Shown in pieces: positions 2,953 to 58,997 of a DNA stretch of 64,000 bases. The stretch's first letter is position 1. Every line of letters starts with the position of its first letter. The position numbers were made by a program, and so were the translations under genes. The stretch comes from Eledone cirrhosa (lineage: Eukaryota), in the NCBI GenBank assembly GCA_964016885.1, contig OZ024745.1:95852001-95916000 (forward strand), read 5' to 3'. The notes beneath the pieces were generated by a model, which searched no databases, was not told the origin of the DNA, and saw only the letters and a list, made by a program, of their open reading frames with translations.

Positions 2953-3315
2953 AAGAATGAGAAATAAGATAGATTGAGGGGATGGGCGGAATGGAATTGG
3001 AAAAAATGTCTTTAGATAAAAATAACAGGTCCATTTATGTTGACATCTCTTGCAAAACTGTTGGTCGTGGCGTTTTGTGTATGATTTAGTTTATAGAAAA
3101 GTGGATGATGGAGTGCATCTACCTGAAATGGAAAAAAACGTTTTGTAAAAAGAGCTATACTTATACATATATATATATTTCCTTCGAATGAAACAGTTCT
3201 AGTCCTGTAGAAGCCATTTCTATATTTTATATATATATATATCCATATGTGGTTAGTGGCTGAGAAAGGAGTATTCAATACTGAAGTAGAGTTTTTATGT
3301 TCATTTTATTAAAGA

Positions 3316-3443
3316 TGAATAGTGAGTCTTGTTACTCTGGAGTTTCACTTGTTCATCACAAGGTCATTAGACAAGATATTAAGATGTCTGATGACCCCTG
3401 TGATAAACAGGTGAAACTCCAGAGTAACAAGACTCACTACTCA
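3316..3443. mobile_element. Imperfect palindrome containing two head-to-head type I hammerhead motifs
   Basis: Plus strand 3385-3432: TGT-CTGATGA-CC-CCTGT-GATAA-ACAGG-T-GAAA-CTCCAGAG-TA-ACA. The minus-strand copy at 3327-3376 has a 6-bp stem I (TCTTGT/ACAAGA) and a CTAATGA core variant. Confidence 0.75.
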
Positions 3444-3451
3444 GCCTTAAT

Positions 3452-3752
3452 GTATATATGGTGGCTGCCAACTCGTTTTCGAATACGGTCACTACTTTAT
3501 ATCCATGTAGGAGAACCCCTACCGATGCGCTGAACGAGTGTGACTTTTTAGTCCAGCCAGCGACTTGAAAACTCTGGTACAAACACTACACTTGTGACAA
3601 TTATTGACACATAGTGCTGGGCCTATGGTACAATGTGACGACAAGTGCAGAAAGATCTCCAGATATAAAGCAATGCCTGTGCCGTGAAGCTTTTATAGTG
3701 AGCCAAGGCACTGCACAAAGCCAGTCCCACTCTCTTAACCAAGATGATATTT
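3452..3752 (-). mobile_element. Inverted, 5'-truncated copy of the 965-1262 RTE-derived element
   Basis: Near-identical reverse complement of 965-1262, with TA-rich flanks. Confidence 0.85.
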
Positions 3753-19976: not shown

Positions 19977-20638
19977 ATTTTTATGAATAATGTAATATCA
20001 GATAATCTGTTTAGTTGTTGAATTAAATAGTTTAAAGCTTTAAATAAGCTGCTAATTAAATGAGTTATTGCTGTCATATACTAAGCCTATAAGATATGTT
20101 ACACACTAGTACCAGAAAGTAAGAGGTATGTTGTATAAGCAGCTGTTATTTACTGCATATTCATATTGTGCAAATCAAGGATGCTGTATTATACAGCCAG
20201 TAGGCATCTCTAACAAAATACACCCCCGTCCCACCACCCACACCCCATCCACACCACCCCCTCCTATGTAAAGTTATGTTGGTGCCACAACATCCAGGCC
20301 GAAACAAATGAGATCGTGTAGGTGTCACGACAAAAAAACACACAGTCCACGCTGTAATGTGGCCGTGTAGGCAACACGGTAAAAACCTCCCAGTCCCACA
20401 CTGTAAATGTGGTTGGTGTTAGGAAGGGCATCCAACTGTAGAAAACCTGCCAGACAGTCCTATGCGAGCAAGACAATCACTCTTGCCTCAAGTGGGACTA
20501 CCCCTGTCCAAACCCATGCAAGCGTGGAACACGGACGTTAAACGTTGATGATGATGATGATGATGATATACATATATGTGTCTGATGGTAGGCAGTATGC
20601 CGGTTGAGCACTCTATGTTCTTACAGAGCAGAGTGTGA

Positions 20639-20900
20639 TATAATATAAAACGAAAAATCAGTGATGCATCTGAACTCAATTTATTGGGTGTTACAACTGT
20701 TTCGCTGGCGGACAGCTCGAGACACGATCATTGTGTGGATCTGTCTGATTCTAGATCTGCAGGTTCGACGGAACATCTGCGGATCCAGAATCAGACAGAT
20801 CCACACAATGATCGTGTCTCGAGCTGTCCGCTGGCAAAACAATTGTAACACCCAATAAATTGAGTTCAGATGCATCACTGATTTTTCGTTTTATATTATA
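20639..20900. mobile_element. ~260-bp palindrome; each arm carries a hammerhead 3' half
   Basis: Arms are reverse complements with a few mismatches. The minus arm reads gccagc-GAAA-CAGTTG-TA-ACAC, the plus arm gctggc-AAAA-CAATTG-TA-ACAC. Confidence 0.75.
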
Positions 20901-21025
20901 CATATATATATTTCGTTCCTGAATTTGTTAAGCAAGATTCGTTATCTGAAAACGTGTGTTGAAACCGATATTGTATATATTGTATATATATTGTGTATAT
21001 ATATATATATATATATTTTTTTTTT

Positions 21026-30516: not shown

Positions 30517-30918
30517 TTAATAAAATGTCAGAAGGCGAGGCAAATGTTTTTTCCTCTCAAACCATTTGCAATTGTAGCGACTAGCGCCACCTTGCCTGGG
30601 GAGAAAAACTAATTGGAGTTACTTCCGTTAAATTCTAGAGGATTCCTTGAACTTCTGGTCTAGGGATTATAAAGGAGGGAGAAAAGAGACATCTTAGCTT
30701 TATTTGGCGACCAGCTCTCGGACAGTTCACTCATGAGCGAGTTTGTTAACCTTATTATATCTGTATCGAATTAAATTAGTGGTTGGCCTGCAGTGGCGTT
30801 TACCAAAGTAAATAACCCTGTAAATAACGTGATCATATAATTTCTACCGACGTTTGAACAAATAATTTCTACCGACGTTTCGAAAAAAGAAAATCATCTC
30901 TCTCGACCAAATTTCATC

Positions 30919-31683
30919 ATGAGCAACACATCGTTACCAGCGTATTCTGGCGATGCCAAATTGTGGTTCGCCCAGCTTGATGCGTATTTTGCGGTCAACG
31001 GAGTACAGGAAAAACAGCAAAAATTAAACGTGTTAATCAGCGGAATTCCAGCTTCACTAGCGATTACAGTAAAAGACATAATCACGAACCCTCCCCAAGG
31101 CGTTTCCTACGAGTCTCTGAAGACAGAGTTACTGCGTAGGAACTGTAGGTCGCCTGAGAGTAAATTTTGTTCCTTATTAGAGGATGAAAATCTGGGGGAC
31201 AGAACTCCTACAGAGTTTTTACGGCGTATCCGTGAACTCAGTGATGCTGCGCTCGAAGACAGTTCCTTCGTAACAAAGTTATTCTTCTCCCGTTTGCCAA
31301 CTAACGTGCAAACCATATTAGCGAATACGGTTGACACCAGTTCGATAGAACAAATTGCTGCCTCTGCGGACAGAATTATGGAATTTTCTAGAGAACCTAC
31401 TTCGGCTGATTCGGTCATTGCCTCTTCTGCTTTCAAAACCCAGCCTGCTTCACCTCGTGAGGATTCAATGTTGAGAGCCATTGACGCGCTAACTAGACAA
31501 GTAACTAAACTATGTAGGGATCGAACGCCATCTAGACGGCGTTCACGAAGTCGGTCTTCTTCCTTTCACCGTCGCGCCAACCTCCCCGCCAACAACTCGT
31601 CTTTGAGTTGGTATCACATGCGTTTTCGTGAAAAGGCGAAACATTGTATTCAGCCCTGCTCTTTCGAGACCTCAGAAAACTAA
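30919..31683 (+). CDS. gag: Gypsy Gag (CsRn1-type, degenerate CHCC knuckle)
   Basis: LWFAQLDAYF, LGDRTPTEFLRR and (S)WYH.RF.EKA..C.QPC.F motifs; open 254 aa. Confidence 0.85.
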   Translation: MSNTSLPAYSGDAKLWFAQLDAYFAVNGVQEKQQKLNVLISGIPASLAITVKDIITNPPQGVSYESLKTELLRRNCRSPESKFCSLLEDENLGDRTPTEFLRRIRELSDAALEDSSFVTKLFFSRLPTNVQTILANTVDTSSIEQIAASADRIMEFSREPTSADSVIASSAFKTQPASPREDSMLRAIDALTRQVTKLCRDRTPSRRRSRSRSSSFHRRANLPANNSSLSWYHMRFREKAKHCIQPCSFETSEN

Positions 31684-31699
31684 AATTGGAGAGTCTGGG

Positions 31700-34600
31700 C
31701 ACGGCAGATCTCTCCCTCATTAATTCACCTTATCGTGCTTTTTTCATCAGCAACCGAGTTTCAAACAAATCATTCATGGTCGACACAGGATCAAGTTGCC
31801 CTTACGGTTCAACTCTACCAGGCCAACTCTTTCCGGCATTTCTTTGTATGCAGTAAACCTATAAAAACTTATGGACAGATATATTTAACTCTGGACCTAG
31901 CTTTAAGTCGAGATTTCAAAGGGATTTTTGTCATTGTCGACCTACCTCATCCTATTCTCGGTGTGGATTTCTTACAGCACTATTCACTTTTGGTAGATGT
32001 CAGGAACCAGAAACTTGTGGGTAGTACCACATCCTTAGCTACGCCTACTCGTAAATCTACCACTACTGCTATCAATCCGTCATTTTTTGTGTCTGCCGCT
32101 GGAAACCAGTTTCATGCACTCCTTACTTCGTTCCCCGAGTTAACGGATATTTCATTTAAACCTACTCAGGCAGCCCACTCGACTCAACACTTCGTTACAA
32201 CAACTGGTCCACCTGTTTTCTCTCCTCCACGAAGGTTGTCTCCGGATAGACTAAAAAAAGCACGAATCGAGTTCGAACACATGCTCCAGCTCGGTCTTAT
32301 ACGACCGTCCACCATCCCATGGGCATCTTCGCTTCACTTGGCTCGTAAGGGTGAAGCGGATTTTAGGCCTGTGGGAGATTATCGACGACTTAATGCCATC
32401 ACCACGCCGGACTGTTATCCTCTACCAAATTTACAGGATTTTTCATCCGTTCTGCATGGATGCAAGCTATTTTCCAAAATAGATCTAATACGTGCATACC
32501 ACCAGATACCCATGAATCCAGGGAATATACCCAAAACAGCTGTGACCACCCCCTTTGGTCATTTGAATTCCTGTCCATGCCTTTTGGTTTGCGGAATGCC
32601 TCTAGTACATTCCAGCGTTTTATCGATGAAGTTACGCGTGGATTGGATTTCGTGTTTGCTTACGTTGATGATCTCCTGATAGCCAGTGATTCGGATGAAT
32701 ACCATCATCAACATCTATCTCAGTTATTTCAACGTCTCCAATCGTACCAAGTCAGAATCAACCCAGCTAAATGTGTGTTTGGTACAGATTCACTGGAATT
32801 CCTTAGACACCTTATAGATTCAGAAGGCATTCGTCCTTTGCCATCTAAAGTAGAGGCGATTCAGCAATTAGCACCACCAACATCCTTGAGACAATTACGC
32901 CATTTCTTGGGATTAATTAACTTTTACCGTCGCTTTATTCCTAACTGTGCGGGCAAGTTGTTCTCCTTCACACAGTTTTTAAAGGCTGCGAAAAAGAAAG
33001 ATGCTCCTATTTCACTTTCTACCGATGCTTTGCAGTCTTTTGAATCCGTCAAGTCTGAGATAGCTGAAATTTCCTGACTCGCCCATCCTGTTGCAAACGC
33101 GAAACTTTCTTTATCTGTTGACGCATCCGATCGACCACCAGGTTCAACCACTGGCGTTTTTCTCACGCCAACTAAAACCAGCAGAGCAACGTTACAGTAC
33201 TTTTGACAGAGAGATTTTAGCAGTTTATCTTGCTGTGAGACACTGCCACCATCTTCTTGAAGGTCGGGAGTTCACGGTATTCACAGACCATAAACCACTC
33301 ACATTCGCTCTTCAAACCAAGTCCGACAGATACTCTCCGATAGCATACGGATATTTGGATTTCATCTCCCAGTACACCCGTGACATTCGTCATATAGCTG
33401 GAGCTGCCAACATACCCGCGGACGCATTATCTCGACTTTCTGTATGTTCTCTTGCGTCTCCTGCACATATCGATTTGGCTACCATAGCAACTGACCAACC
33501 TACTTTGGATTCGCTGGACATTTCTTCTACTCAGTTTTCCTGCTGTAAATTTGATTATTTACCTCTTCCATCTGCTGAAGGAAAAATTCTTTGCGATATT
33601 TCTACTGGCTCACCTAGACCACTTGTTCCAGATTGCCATCAATGTACCGTTTTTGATGCACTTCATTCCTTGTCGCATCCCGGCATAGCTGCCACGGTGA
33701 AGCTTATTACGGCTCGATTTTTCTGGCCTAATATGTGTCGTTTAATCACCGGTTGGGCACGTTCTTGTTTGTAGTGTCAGCGCTCTAAGATTTATCGGCA
33801 TGTCCGTGCTCCTCTTGGGAAATTCAGCCCGCCAGACGCACGTTTCCGTCATATACACATGGATATTGTTGGTCCATGGCTCGTTAGTCATGGGTTCACA
33901 TACATATTGACTTGTATGGATCGTTTCTCTCGGTGGCCTGAAGCCATACCCCTAGTGGAAATAACAGCAGAGTCCGTTGCCCGAGCTTTCATTTCCAATT
34001 GGATTGCTCGTTTCGGTGTTCCTACTAAAATAACTACGGATCGTGGACGCCAATTTGAGGCTTCCTTATTTCGTGAAATATCACGACTCTTGGGTGCTCA
34101 TCACATTCATACGACCAGCTATCACCCAGCCTCCAATGGAATGGTCGAGAGGTTTCATAGACAGTTAAAAGCTGCACTCCGCGCTACTCCTGATCCGCAA
34201 CGTTGGACCGAATTTTTGCCAATTGTGCTTCTTGGTTGTCGTTCTGCCATTAAGACAGATTTAGGTTTCTCTTCTGCTGAACTTCTTTATGGTACCACAT
34301 TGTCCTTTCCTGGACAAATGTTAGTACCAGTGGATTCATCGCATCTTGACCCAGCATCATATGTCACCAGGATTCGTTCGTATTTCTCGGATCTTCCACC
34401 AATGAACCCTCGTGACCAGTCTATTTCTTCTGCTGTCCCATCGGACATCTCTACGTGGACACATATTTTTATTCGGAATGATTCCGTCAAGGGACCACTT
34501 ACTTCACCTTATAAAGGACCTTTTCGTGTGCTTTCGCACACACCAAAACACTTTACAGTGGCTGTCAATGGTCGAAAAGAAGTAATATCCGTTGACAGAG

Positions 34601-34782
34601 CAAAGAAGGCTTTCTCTGAAAGTCTCACATCATTGCCTGACATACCTCACACATACACTCCCACACAAACACCTTCACCTCCACCGCAAACACCACATAC
34701 CACACAACCATATGTCACACGAAGTGGCAGGACAGTAATATGGCCACGTAAACCCCCAAAACAATATACGTCTAACCCCTAG
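31700..34782 (+). pseudogene. pol: Gypsy Pol (protease, RT, RNase H, integrase), disrupted
   Basis: [79 protein letters not shown] motifs, spread over several frames with stops. Confidence 0.95.
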
Positions 34783-45106: not shown

Positions 45107-45185
45107 TAACGAAGGAAATGTGGTAAGGAACCAGGTGGACCATAACGCACCAAAGTACTCAATACTTGAGGTAGTAGAGTGGGTA

Positions 45186-45296
45186 ATAGGAACCAGTAAG
45201 ACCCCGACAGCTGAGCTCAAGCCGTTTCGACGGCTAATTCAGAATTAGCCGTCGAAACGGCTTGAGCTCAGCTGTCGGGGTCTTACTGGTTCCTAT
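45186..45296. mobile_element. Perfect 111-bp palindrome (55-bp arms, 1-nt spacer) made of hammerhead stem II plus 3' half
   Basis: The centre is gacggctaattc-a-gaattagccgtc, followed directly by GAAA-CGGCT-tgagctc-AGCTG-TC-ggggtc on both strands. The left arm extends to ~45105. (TA)n on both sides. Confidence 0.8.

Positions 45297-56466: not shown

Positions 56467-56472
<6 letters not shown>
55645..56472 (-). mobile_element. 5'-truncated RTE (subfamily B) with long 3'UTR
   Basis: MKGRLYDACIRTAMLHGSETW..RRLRWYGHVMRM..GRPRKTW, stop at 56035-56037, then a 3'UTR nearly identical to 20195-20565 and a (GAT)n tail. Confidence 0.9.
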
Positions 56473-56506
<34 letters not shown>

Positions 56507-56516
<10 letters not shown>

Positions 56517-56848
56517 AGATCAAAAGATGGTTAAAAGAGTTCCATGTATTTTATTATGCGCATTTCAAAAACAAATATCATCATGCAATAACATTTGTGT
56601 TTTCATCAGATAAAATAGGAAGACATGATATGAAGGTTAAAAAACACTTGTGGATAGTTCAGTTTTAAATCAACATATATGTTGATTTAAAACTGCACTA
56701 TCCACAAGTGTTTTTTAACCTTCATATCATGTCTTCCTATTTTATCTGATGAAAACACAAATGTTATTGCATGATGATATTTGTTTTTGAAATGCGCATA
56801 ATAAAATACATGGAACTATTTTAACCATCTTTTGATCTTATATATTAT
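56507..56848. mobile_element. ~340-bp near-perfect palindrome with two complete head-to-head type I hammerhead motifs
   Basis: Centre at 56677/56678, with two mismatches seen between arms. Plus ribozyme 56738-56808: TATTTTAT-CTGATGA-[stem II]-GAAA-TGCGCA-T-A-ATAAAATA. Mirror copy at 56547-56617. Confidence 0.85.
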
Positions 56849-58997
56849 GTATACTCCAGTCCTACAAACTGTAGAGTGCTTCTTATCCGATATCTGCATT
56901 GCTTTATTGTACTACAATAAAACTCACCTCCTACATATATATATATATATCTAGGGCGGGTAAAATTGCCGAGATCCATGGACGAGTTTTCTCCAGTGGT
57001 CTCTGTTCTACTAATTTATTTACTTTATTCTTAACTCTGAAGCCGAGAATCATTCGGTTTCCTAAATAGAATATTAGTCTACGACTTCATTTATACCATA
57101 AACGTAATTTTGTCTTTGCGTGTAATTGTTCTCATCGCCCCACATAATGACGTATTGTCTTCGCTTTTTTCCATTCATTGCAAGGGAACGTCTTCACATA
57201 CCAAAGTACCGTTTCCTGTTTTCCTTTGGCTGCAACGTTTTTCAAAATATTTACTTCTGCGTTTACAGATTAATAAAGATCAATACAGATTAATAAAGAT
57301 CAATAAAGAGAACCCCTCATTTGAAATCAATGTTATTAAAGAAAGATGTTGATGATATCAACAATAAATCTTTGACAACTCAATTTCCAGGAGTTTAAAG
57401 TTTCTCTGAGAAACGCCTCCCTTTGTTGTTTGGTTGACATTGTTAATCATCTGAATATATAATATTAGAGATTTGTAAAATTTGCCAACCTTTACTGGTA
57501 ATTCCTGAACCATCTGATACAGCTGCACACACATTTTCACAAGTAGCATGATTGATGATATGTCTTTCGTCAAGAATGACACAAGAGTGATTAAATTCTC
57601 TGGATATACAATTACATCACAAAGTAGGGAGAGAGAAAACAATCTCATTGCAGTGGCTGCAGAATTTGTGATGTAAAATGACAGTGGGCAAAAGAATTTC
57701 AACAAATTCTGATTGGTTTGATGGGAATTGATTTAACTAATACAGCATTATTATTACAATTACTGTTTCAGTTTTAAAATGACATTGTATAATTATATTT
57801 TGCTATACATAATACATTTCAATTAACACTTTCCAAACCTACTAATTGCAAAATATTACTAGTTGTGGTTGCAAAGTGATCACATACTTTTTCTAGCTTA
57901 TTGTTATGGTTGGTTCATCTTTTAATATCGATTTACATTTAGACATTTAAAAGCATGGATGTTAGCTTGACCCTCTTCACTGCACAACAACACCAATCTA
58001 CATTATCCCAAACCTACCCACACTTGTTACTCAAAAATATCTCTGCAGAGTCTGGCAAAAGAAATTGTGCACTTAACTGACCAATTTGGTTTTGCCATTG
58101 GTGATGTCAGTAGGTTTGCTAAACTTGATATTACATCAGGTTAGATCATCATTAAGGTTCTGTATCACTATTTTTGTGATTTTAATATAGAAACCAGCGG
58201 TATATTTGGTTTTCCCAAATCACGCCCAATCAACTTCATGTAAAATCATGAAAGAGTACAATGTTGAGCATAAATTGATGTTGAAAGTACACCTAGCAAT
58301 TAATTACTATATAGTTATATCATCAAATTTGATTACAGTTATTACATTGTGCCTCTGGGCCAGATACACTACTATGCATACTTCAATATTTCTGGCTGAT
58401 AATAGCTTCCATTTCTACTTCATAGCAGAATGGCTATCAACTGATAAAGTATTCATTTCTAAAATCAATTACTTCAATAATATACAAATGTTTAAATTTA
58501 CAAAAGCACATTCCATGCAATAAAAATATAGGAAAATGGCTGCAAAATTCTTTGAAATGATATATACTATGCTAAATATAAATTTGAAAACAGAGACAAC
58601 TGAAAGTAGTTCCAGCTAAATCCTGTCAATAAAATCTCCATACAGTTTAAATGCACAGCAAATCTCCGATTTCCGAATGACTAGATGTCAGCAGAAGGAC
58701 ACTCAGGAATTGTGACCTGGATGCATTCCAGCCCTCTTACAGGGTAAGAAGTTAAGGGCCAAAACACTCGCTTGAGGGGTGTTTCTTCTCTGAAAAACCT
58801 TCTGCTGTTCAGCTCTCCTGAGAGTATCTTACCACCACTGCTATCATAGAAAACAAAGGAAAATGGATGCAAAATTCTCAAGGAATATGTACTATGGTGG
58901 AAAACATAGTAAAATGGTTACAGAATTCTTATGAAATAATATATACTATGGTAGAAAACAGGAAAATGGTTGCAAAATTATAATGAAATTATGTAAA

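What the first reader, a model, noticed from the sequence alone, without database searches (positions are those of the whole stretch)
56507..56935. Best-preserved double-hammerhead hairpin (two complete ribozyme motifs, 171-bp arms)
Each arm has an 8-bp stem I (TATTTTAT/ATAAAATA), intact CTGATGA and GAAA boxes, a long AU/GU stem II and a self-complementary ATGCGCAT stem III suited to dimeric cleavage. Predicted cleavage is after 56800 (+) and at the mirror site (-). About 85 nt of unique sequence follows the right arm before the next (TA)n. The base of stem II is A-T rather than the usual G-C, so activity may be reduced.
Basis: partly seen in the sequence, partly recalled or inferred. Interest (0 to 1): 0.8.

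Follow-up and report, generated by a model that had tools for sequence, protein, structure and literature searches.

The report
Head-to-head Penelope retroelement stub with hammerheads
The hairpin is two back-to-back stubs of a Penelope-like jumping gene's end, one of at least 1,700 in this genome, and the copies suggest that both stubs were likely written at once from one RNA, starting at two fixed points and stopping at that RNA's predicted start.

Summary
The palindrome and both hammerhead motifs are real (arms 98% alike; 0 such motifs in 100 shuffles). It is not a stand-alone double ribozyme. The motifs lie on opposite strands, and a read-through RNA would bury the sense motif in a 176-bp duplex (104 kcal/mol penalty). 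The right arm plus the '85 nt unique' stretch is the 258-nt end (pseudo-LTR plus tail) of a Penelope-like retroelement with Hydra-clade protein motifs; a full-length relative is 96% identical. The genome holds over 20,000 such ends and 1,746 hairpin axes like this one; 77 of 84 sampled motifs are equally intact, and the A-U base of stem II is the family norm. The added value lies in the population. 45 of 47 two-armed insertions pair one long with one short end, none long with long. Arms break about 60-fold more often at one initiator-like site, often with an extra G, and not at the ribozyme cut. Junctions are remade at each insertion. This points to twin priming on one capped RNA rather than the published antisense self-priming idea. 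The element class is known; the mechanism is inferred and testable.

The parts
56471..56506 (.). (TA)n target, left side; its border with the short arm is blurred because the arm ends in a TA-like run
56502..56678 (-). Short arm: inverted copy of the pLTR from the inferred RNA start (q0) to the short 3' end (q168-176); q1 = 56678 on the right arm
56547..56617 (-). Type I hammerhead motif of the short arm, predicted cut after 56555 on the minus strand
56677..56678 (.). Fold axis: both arms begin at the family's 5' break hot spot (A of an initiator-like TCATATG in the parent) and share a 2-nt AT overlap
56677..56853 (+). Long arm, pLTR part q0-176
56738..56808 (+). Type I hammerhead motif (8-bp stem I, 15-bp stem II with one C-U mismatch, palindromic stem III), predicted cut after 56800
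56854..56935 (+). Tail, q177-258: family sequence between the short and long 3' ends; in tandem parents it continues 79 nt to the ORF start codon
56936..56950 (.). (TA)n target, right side

Best explanation
The hairpin is a single insertion, likely dead on arrival, of the end of a Penelope-like retroelement with Hydra-clade protein motifs, and it was likely made when the element's enzyme nicked both strands of a (TA)n run and primed two cDNAs on the same RNA at two fixed sites. Shown: family identity, parent ORF, (TA)n target, two fixed 3' ends (q168-176 and q258), one long plus one short end per insertion, a 5' break hot spot at q0, and varied junctions. Inferred: q0 is the capped transcription start; a transcript that starts there is primed inside its own first pLTR, both cDNAs run off the 5' end after 176 and 258 nt, and their ends are joined head to head by microhomology. 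The hammerhead is a passenger of the pLTR. It is under structural selection in source elements and probably works as a dimer there, but it would be silenced in RNA read through this hairpin.
For: Parent: the 258-nt end lies 1.1 kb behind a GIY-YIG-type C-terminus in 17 of 20 loci (the query's own locus included) and directly before the ORF in 6 of 25 loci with UTR plus whole pLTR. Full-length partial tandem L242 is 96.1% identical to the right arm plus tail. Ends: of 70 insertions from the first 100 exact hits on contig C1, 47 show two inverted outer ends: 45 long+short, 2 short+short, 0 long+long (p 7e-12); the other 23 show one end only or could not be resolved. One template: arms of 39 hairpins differ at 15 of 768 subfamily-diagnostic cells (2%) versus 38% between hairpins. 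Made anew each time: 29 junction types in 39 hairpins. Not self-copying: in 19 of 45 the short-ended arm reaches more than 30 nt further 5' than the long one (5 the reverse, 21 level), and in 6 of 45 the long arm stops at q160-204, near the second priming site, so the two arms tile the RNA. Hot spot: 31 of 100 arms break at q-1..+2, 0.10 versus 0.0016 per nt; genome-wide only 5,520 of 13,222 arms with q1-21 keep the 6 upstream parent bases. A non-parental G precedes q0 in 2,290 arms versus A or T in 2,482 (48% G against about 21% expected); untemplated G is read as a copied cap in L1 and SVA (PMC4859970, passages). A second family in the window shows the same long+short rule (12+12 arm views, none like-with-like), breaks at an initiator-like TCAGT, and has G 46, A 6, C 48 in the first 100 listed (my count). 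In vitro, a Poseidon protein nicks and extends both strands, starts at two internal sites that bound the tail, and is modelled as a dimer (PMC11167929, parts 1-2 of 4).
Against: No RNA evidence for the start site was available to test it. The extra G has rivals: in 13 of 30 inspected cases it is covered by the partner arm, and many others could be templated from a similar 6-mer at q43-48 or by slippage. In the second family many Gs and Cs are also ambiguous, and that pattern left out T at -1, so read-through copies are undercounted. The 19-versus-5 excess is biased, because very short short-ended arms look like (TA)n and escape detection. The pile-up of long-arm stops near the second site rests on 6 cases and was not tested for significance. 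In 17 of 45 insertions both arms reach the start, so the long cDNA must displace the short one or use a second RNA of the same source; one hairpin (L228) mixes subfamily alleles. Arm likeness could also come from later gene conversion. Two of the 45 (L206) look like a local duplication. The sample comes from the first 35 Mb of one contig.
Confidence: 0.68

Rival explanations
1. Self-priming or snap-back: one cDNA (or an antisense template, as proposed for rotifer Penelopes) folds back at a short palindrome and is copied, and the endonuclease or a template switch at the TA-like site q168-176 makes the short end.
For: The axis is a self-complementary ATAT; arms are near-identical; 21 of 45 insertions have arms of level reach; the model is in print (PMC3846280, passages).
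Against: A self-copy cannot reach further than its template, yet 19 of 45 short-ended arms do, some by more than 1 kb, and several pairs do not overlap at all. Only 4 of 39 junctions are the plain fold-back type.
Confidence: 0.12
2. Two RNAs, one per subunit of an asymmetric dimer, each primed at its own site, with the q0 hot spot being a strong polymerase stop or a microhomology trap rather than the RNA start.
For: Full overlap of both arms in 17 of 45 needs no strand displacement under this model; L228 mixes subfamily alleles; a small stem-loop forms at q1-55; the extra G can be templated.
Against: 2% versus 38% discordance at diagnostic sites requires both RNAs to come from the same source almost always; arm pairs that tile around the second site; initiator-like sequence at the hot spot in two families.
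Confidence: 0.15
3. A self-amplifying, non-autonomous hairpin element or retrozyme whose two hammerheads cleave as a dimer and drive its spread (closest to the first reader's title).
For: 1,746 axes at nearly one position; intact motifs; strong predicted intermolecular stem III.
Against: Motifs on opposite strands; 104.5 kcal/mol against folding in read-through RNA; 29 junction types across several subfamilies; no direct tandem units; only 1 of 100 arms breaks within q120-130 and the junction next to the cut site has 34 exact copies.
Confidence: 0.04
4. Assembly artefact (mis-joined palindrome).
For: No listed contig piece from four public runs spans the whole locus.
Against: The arms differ at 3 sites and have unequal, family-typical ends; 1,746 similar axes with varied junctions.
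Confidence: 0.01

Closest known systems
Hydra-clade Penelope-like elements (Craig et al. 2021, PMC8557442; read: abstract, section 11, passages, supplement rows)
   Same: Single ORF with RT and C-terminal GIY-YIG-type nuclease, DKT, CxCX5C linker, no CCHH, CxxC and CxH around E and N, (TA)n targeting, hammerhead in the pLTR.
   Different: Unit about 3.8-3.9 kb (paper: generally under 3 kb), long N-rich insert before the linker, RWI instead of RWK, over 20,000 ends. The one cephalopod family listed there (Hydra-1_Obim, no pLTR) has a different hammerhead and protein sequence.
PLE insertion unit with inverted 5'-truncated copy and one-sided tail (PMC8557442 fig. 2 legend; PMC3846280, passages)
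   Same: Head-to-head inverted pLTR, tail at one end only, microhomology junctions.
   Different: Tail 82-90 nt rather than 30-40 nt; strict long+short pairing quantified; the most common product is a 430-bp stub that stops at one site.
Poseidon PAc in vitro system (Frangieh et al. 2024, PMC11167929; read parts 1-2 of 4)
   Same: Two internal start sites bounding the tail, AT-rich target, both strands extended, hammerhead dispensable for insertion.
   Different: Other clade; in PAc the start sites lie inside the ORF, here the long end is 79 nt before the start codon. The parts read do not treat inverted products.
Minimal type I PLE hammerheads (Cervera and De la Pena 2014, PMC4209133; read parts 1-2 of 4)
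   Same: Long helix II, palindromic helix III, low monomer stability; dual motifs 100-700 bp apart on opposite strands were already noted in Schistosoma.
   Different: No G10.1-C11.1 pair and no bulged base after position 9; 8-bp helix I.
L1 twin priming (cited in PMC4859970, passages; the original paper was not read and the mechanism is recalled)
   Same: Second target strand primes internally on the RNA and gives an inverted 5' part.
   Different: Here the second site is fixed and used in nearly every two-armed insertion, and the arms often overlap fully.

Membership tests
EN+ Penelope-like element | Single ORF with RT and C-terminal GIY-YIG nuclease in the parent | tested here: met
   760-775 aa open frames with YRDD and a C-terminal LIY/LVY..TYFG/TYLG nuclease-type domain, read by motif. 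Pfam and PDB gave no significant match, so the domain names rest on motifs and on likeness by eye to the Hydra alignment in the paper's supplement.
EN+ Penelope-like element | Pseudo-LTR from partial tandem, containing a hammerhead | tested here: met
   UTR-pLTR-ORF-UTR-pLTR in L242; 6 of 25 loci with UTR plus whole pLTR before the ORF.
EN+ Penelope-like element | Inverted 5'-truncated copy with a tail at one end | tested here: met
   45 of 47 two-ended insertions.
EN+ Penelope-like element | Tail of 30-40 bp | tested here: not met
   82-90 nt between the two 3' ends.
EN+ Penelope-like element | Target-site duplication | tested here: inconclusive
   Both flanks are (TA)n.
Hydra clade | DKT motif, CxCX5C linker, no CCHH, CxxC and CxH around E and N | tested here: met
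   HSDKTNN; CNCRIKNKC; one Cys between the two nuclease motifs; CNLC..E..N..CLH (definition).
Hydra clade | RWK motif | tested here: inconclusive
   RWI in this family, RWR in a sister element, RWK in most database relatives.
Hydra clade | (TA)n insertion preference | tested here: met
   Outer ends run into (TA)n or mixed TA/CA runs in most sampled copies, seen in the listings, not counted.
Hydra clade | Length generally under 3 kb | tested here: not met
   3,940 nt from q1 to q1 in L242; a descriptive trait, not a diagnostic one.
Hydra clade | Placement in the Hydra clade on an RT tree | not tested
   No named reference sequences were held as tool sequences.
Type I minimal hammerhead | CUGANGA and GAAA core, NUH site, helices I and II, palindromic helix III | tested here: met
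   all 8 common stem variants keep the pair (one-sided wobble changes); the other common variants are at N7 and loop 2. Sister motifs change helix II and the palindrome while keeping the fold.
Type I minimal hammerhead | G10.1-C11.1 pair | tested here: not met
   A-U in 71 and G-U in 12 of 84 arms; A-U also in sister families.
Type I minimal hammerhead | Self-cleavage | not testable with these tools
   Needs in vitro assay.
Double hammerhead in cis / non-LTR retrozyme | Two sense motifs on one RNA, in direct tandem units | tested here: not met
   Motifs on opposite strands, one per strand in the window; definition from bioRxiv 10.64898/2026.07.22.740005, part 1 of 5.
Foldback / MITE-like element amplified from a master | Copies share both ends and the centre | tested here: not met
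   Unequal ends, 29 junction types in 39 hairpins, several subfamilies.

The most novel reading that the evidence does not exclude
Hydra-type Penelope elements integrate by obligatory twin priming. A dimeric enzyme primes both target strands at two fixed sites about 85 nt apart on one capped sense RNA. A transcript that starts in the pLTR is therefore copied only back to its cap, giving thousands of 430-bp hairpins, and only tandem read-through RNAs give full copies. This would explain the head-to-head repeats, the one-sided tail and the need for tandems with one rule, and would replace the antisense self-priming model.
Probability: 0.5. Interest if true: 0.65.

Novelty: new member of a known kind. 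Interest (0 to 1): 0.4.

Why it matters
The locus itself is ordinary. How Penelope-like elements make their inverted repeats and one-sided tails is called an open problem in PMC8557442. This young, very abundant family gives sharp predictions (start site to the base, two priming sites, one RNA, ribozyme cut unused) that can be tested with the published in vitro assay. At least 1,746 near-perfect 170-bp hairpins from this family, plus sister families, would also be a large source of double-stranded RNA wherever they are read through; transcription and editing were not shown here.

Tried and rejected
Rfam: no hammerhead hit. Folding z-score uninformative. Pfam and PDB did not name the parent protein; the 19 database relatives carry an unnamed precomputed Pfam accession and no useful names. 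No RNA holder listed; contigs of four runs cannot confirm or deny this locus. A 750-aa ORF beside one copy (L035) was first taken for the parent but belongs to a sister element on the other strand. The idea that ribozyme-cut RNA is the template was rejected: an apparent cluster of junctions at q125/q140 amounts to 34 exact copies, and 1 of 100 arms breaks at q120-130. A striking 'A in the long arm, C in the short arm' pattern at q141 (8 hairpins) is most likely an ascertainment effect of searching with this copy, since about 98% of contig depth has C. My first guess of Naiad or Neptune was dropped after reading the clade definitions. No host gene domain was found among 32 of the 58 longer open frames scanned, so intronic position is unknown. 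Literature searches found no paper applying twin priming or a start-site run-off to Penelope-like inverted repeats; subscription journals are mostly not covered. Earlier scan notes for this genome or sequence: none.

Full report
Observation. The window has a loop-less inverted repeat, arms 56502-56677 and 56678-56853, with 3 mismatches, between two (TA)n runs. A strict descriptor finds these 2 in the window and none in 100 shuffles. Rfam does not detect them. Below, q numbers count along the right arm, q1 = 56678, q258 = 56935.

What it belongs to. The right arm plus the following 82 nt is a repeat end. A genome search returned 60 matches from 40 scored of 283 candidates, and exact patterns count 20,207 arms with q146-165, 13,222 with q1-21 and 1,746 fold axes like this one. 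Walking upstream leads through a 1.1-kb pyrimidine-rich UTR to the end of an ORF (17 of 20 loci, the query's own included). In tandem copies q258 runs on 79 nt to that ORF's start codon. Locus L242 is a complete partial tandem, pLTR-ORF-UTR-pLTR, 96.1% identical to our arm plus tail, with one break near the start of the frame. [quoted passage not shown] RWK is RWI here, the unit is longer than typical, and no tree was built, so I file it as Hydra-like by motifs. It is not the one cephalopod Hydra family in that paper's supplement.

The ribozyme. Among 84 sampled arms spanning the motif, 77 have an intact core and palindrome. All 8 common stem variants keep their pair, and the rest fall at N7 or in loop 2. 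Sister motifs in the fetched loci vary helix II and the palindrome while keeping the fold. So the fold is under selection in source elements, and A10.1-U11.1 is the norm. As a monomer stem III is unstable (probability 0.001, and stem I only 0.07, in a single-arm RNA); two sense copies cofold into the double-hammerhead stems at -34.1 versus -20.0 kcal/mol. In this hairpin the second motif is antisense, and forcing the motif in a read-through RNA costs 104.5 kcal/mol on either strand. The cut site leaves almost no trace in insertions: 1 of 100 arms breaks within q120-130 and the adjacent junction type has 34 exact copies. This fits the report that PAc hammerhead mutants still insert (PMC11167929).

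How the hairpin forms. I took the first 100 exact q146-165 hits on contig C1. They make 70 insertions. 47 show two inverted outer ends: 45 long+short, 2 short+short, 0 long+long; 21 show one end, 1 hit the edge of the fetched DNA, 1 had a partial arm (p 7e-12). 38 arms break at q-14..+4 (31 at -1..+2), 23 inside q5-145, and 39 read into the UTR; the hot spot is about 60-fold. Genome-wide, 5,520 of 13,222 arms keep the 6 upstream parent bases, part of the loss being mutation. In 39 distinct hairpins from the fetched loci (this one and two near-duplicates included) there are 29 junction types, and the two arms disagree at 15 of 768 subfamily-diagnostic cells, against 38% between hairpins. In 19 of 45 insertions the short-ended arm reaches further 5' than the long one, in 5 the reverse, in 21 they are level; in 6 the long arm stops at q160-204. 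A fold-back copy of one cDNA cannot outrun its template, so the antisense self-priming proposal (PMC3846280) does not cover this family in general. Twin priming on one RNA does: each target strand primes at its own TA-like site, and the cDNAs are joined by microhomology. In this copy both arms reach q0 and share two bases.

Is q0 the RNA start? The parent reads TCATATG there, close to an initiator (consensus recalled). A non-parental G precedes the A in 2,290 arms versus A or T in 2,482, 48% against about 21% expected, as a copied cap would give (PMC4859970). Against this, of 30 G cases inspected 13 are covered by the partner arm, 15 are not, and 2 have no partner, one being a point change in a read-through copy; many of the 15 could be templated from q43-48 or by slippage. 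A second family with a hairpin in this window follows the same long+short rule, breaks at TCAGT, and shows G 46, A 6, C 48 in the first 100 listed hits; 27 of 30 inspected arms start at that A, but the pattern excluded T-variant read-through copies and many junction bases are ambiguous. I rate the start-site reading as likely, not shown.

Limits. One contig region sampled; short short-ended arms are under-detected; gene conversion could add to arm likeness; one hairpin mixes subfamilies; full overlap of arms needs strand displacement. No RNA run was listed and contigs cannot vouch for this locus. No host gene domain was seen in 32 of 58 frames scanned.

Comparison and verdict. Inverted pLTRs with a one-sided tail, hammerheads in pLTRs and opposite-strand motif pairs are all in print, and earlier notes of this scan describe similar stubs in other genomes (unchecked). 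The locus is a new member of a known kind. What I did not find in print (searches; open-access library only) is the strict pairing counted, an 82-90 nt tail, and a start-site run-off as the source of the stubs. Interest 0.4 overall; 0.65 if the twin-priming rule holds.

Noticed in passing
window 45107-45296: Very young long+short head-to-head hairpin of a second family in (TA)n, tail about 80 nt; several fetched copies 100% identical, 12,121 exact pattern hits genome-wide; no hammerhead core seen by eye in the read-through copies printed. Parent ORF not sought.
   Followed up: partly
window about 20566-20905: Third family with the same layout: 262-bp palindrome, tail of about 70 nt on the left arm.
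   Followed up: partly
window about 3232-3460: Fourth long+short hairpin, older (84-88%), with a hammerhead-like CTGATGA...GAAA remnant whose 5' stem I is cut off by the fold.
   Followed up: partly
L003 (G000:C12:11137492 region): The inverted tail of the second family is joined directly to q1 of this family's long arm: a chimera between families.
   Followed up: no
L035:2546-6873: Sister Penelope-like element with an open 750-aa frame between direct repeats that hold a related hammerhead motif with an all-AT palindrome.
   Followed up: partly
L242 and L057 ORFs: About 75-residue Asn-rich insert between RT and the cysteine linker, absent from the sister element and the eight database relatives aligned; N-rich inserts were described in rotifer Penelopes (PMC3846280).
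   Followed up: no
fetched loci, e.g. L046:1047, L195:8500, L289, L046:174: Several further type I hammerhead motif families with different palindromic stem III sequences; parents not traced.
   Followed up: no
window 30841-34779: LTR-type retroelement remains with RT, RNase H and integrase domains in several broken frames.
   Followed up: no
L267, L269, L295, L298 junctions: Short tandem re-copies of the first 8-50 bases of the arm at the fold, suggesting repeated re-priming at the RNA end.
   Followed up: no
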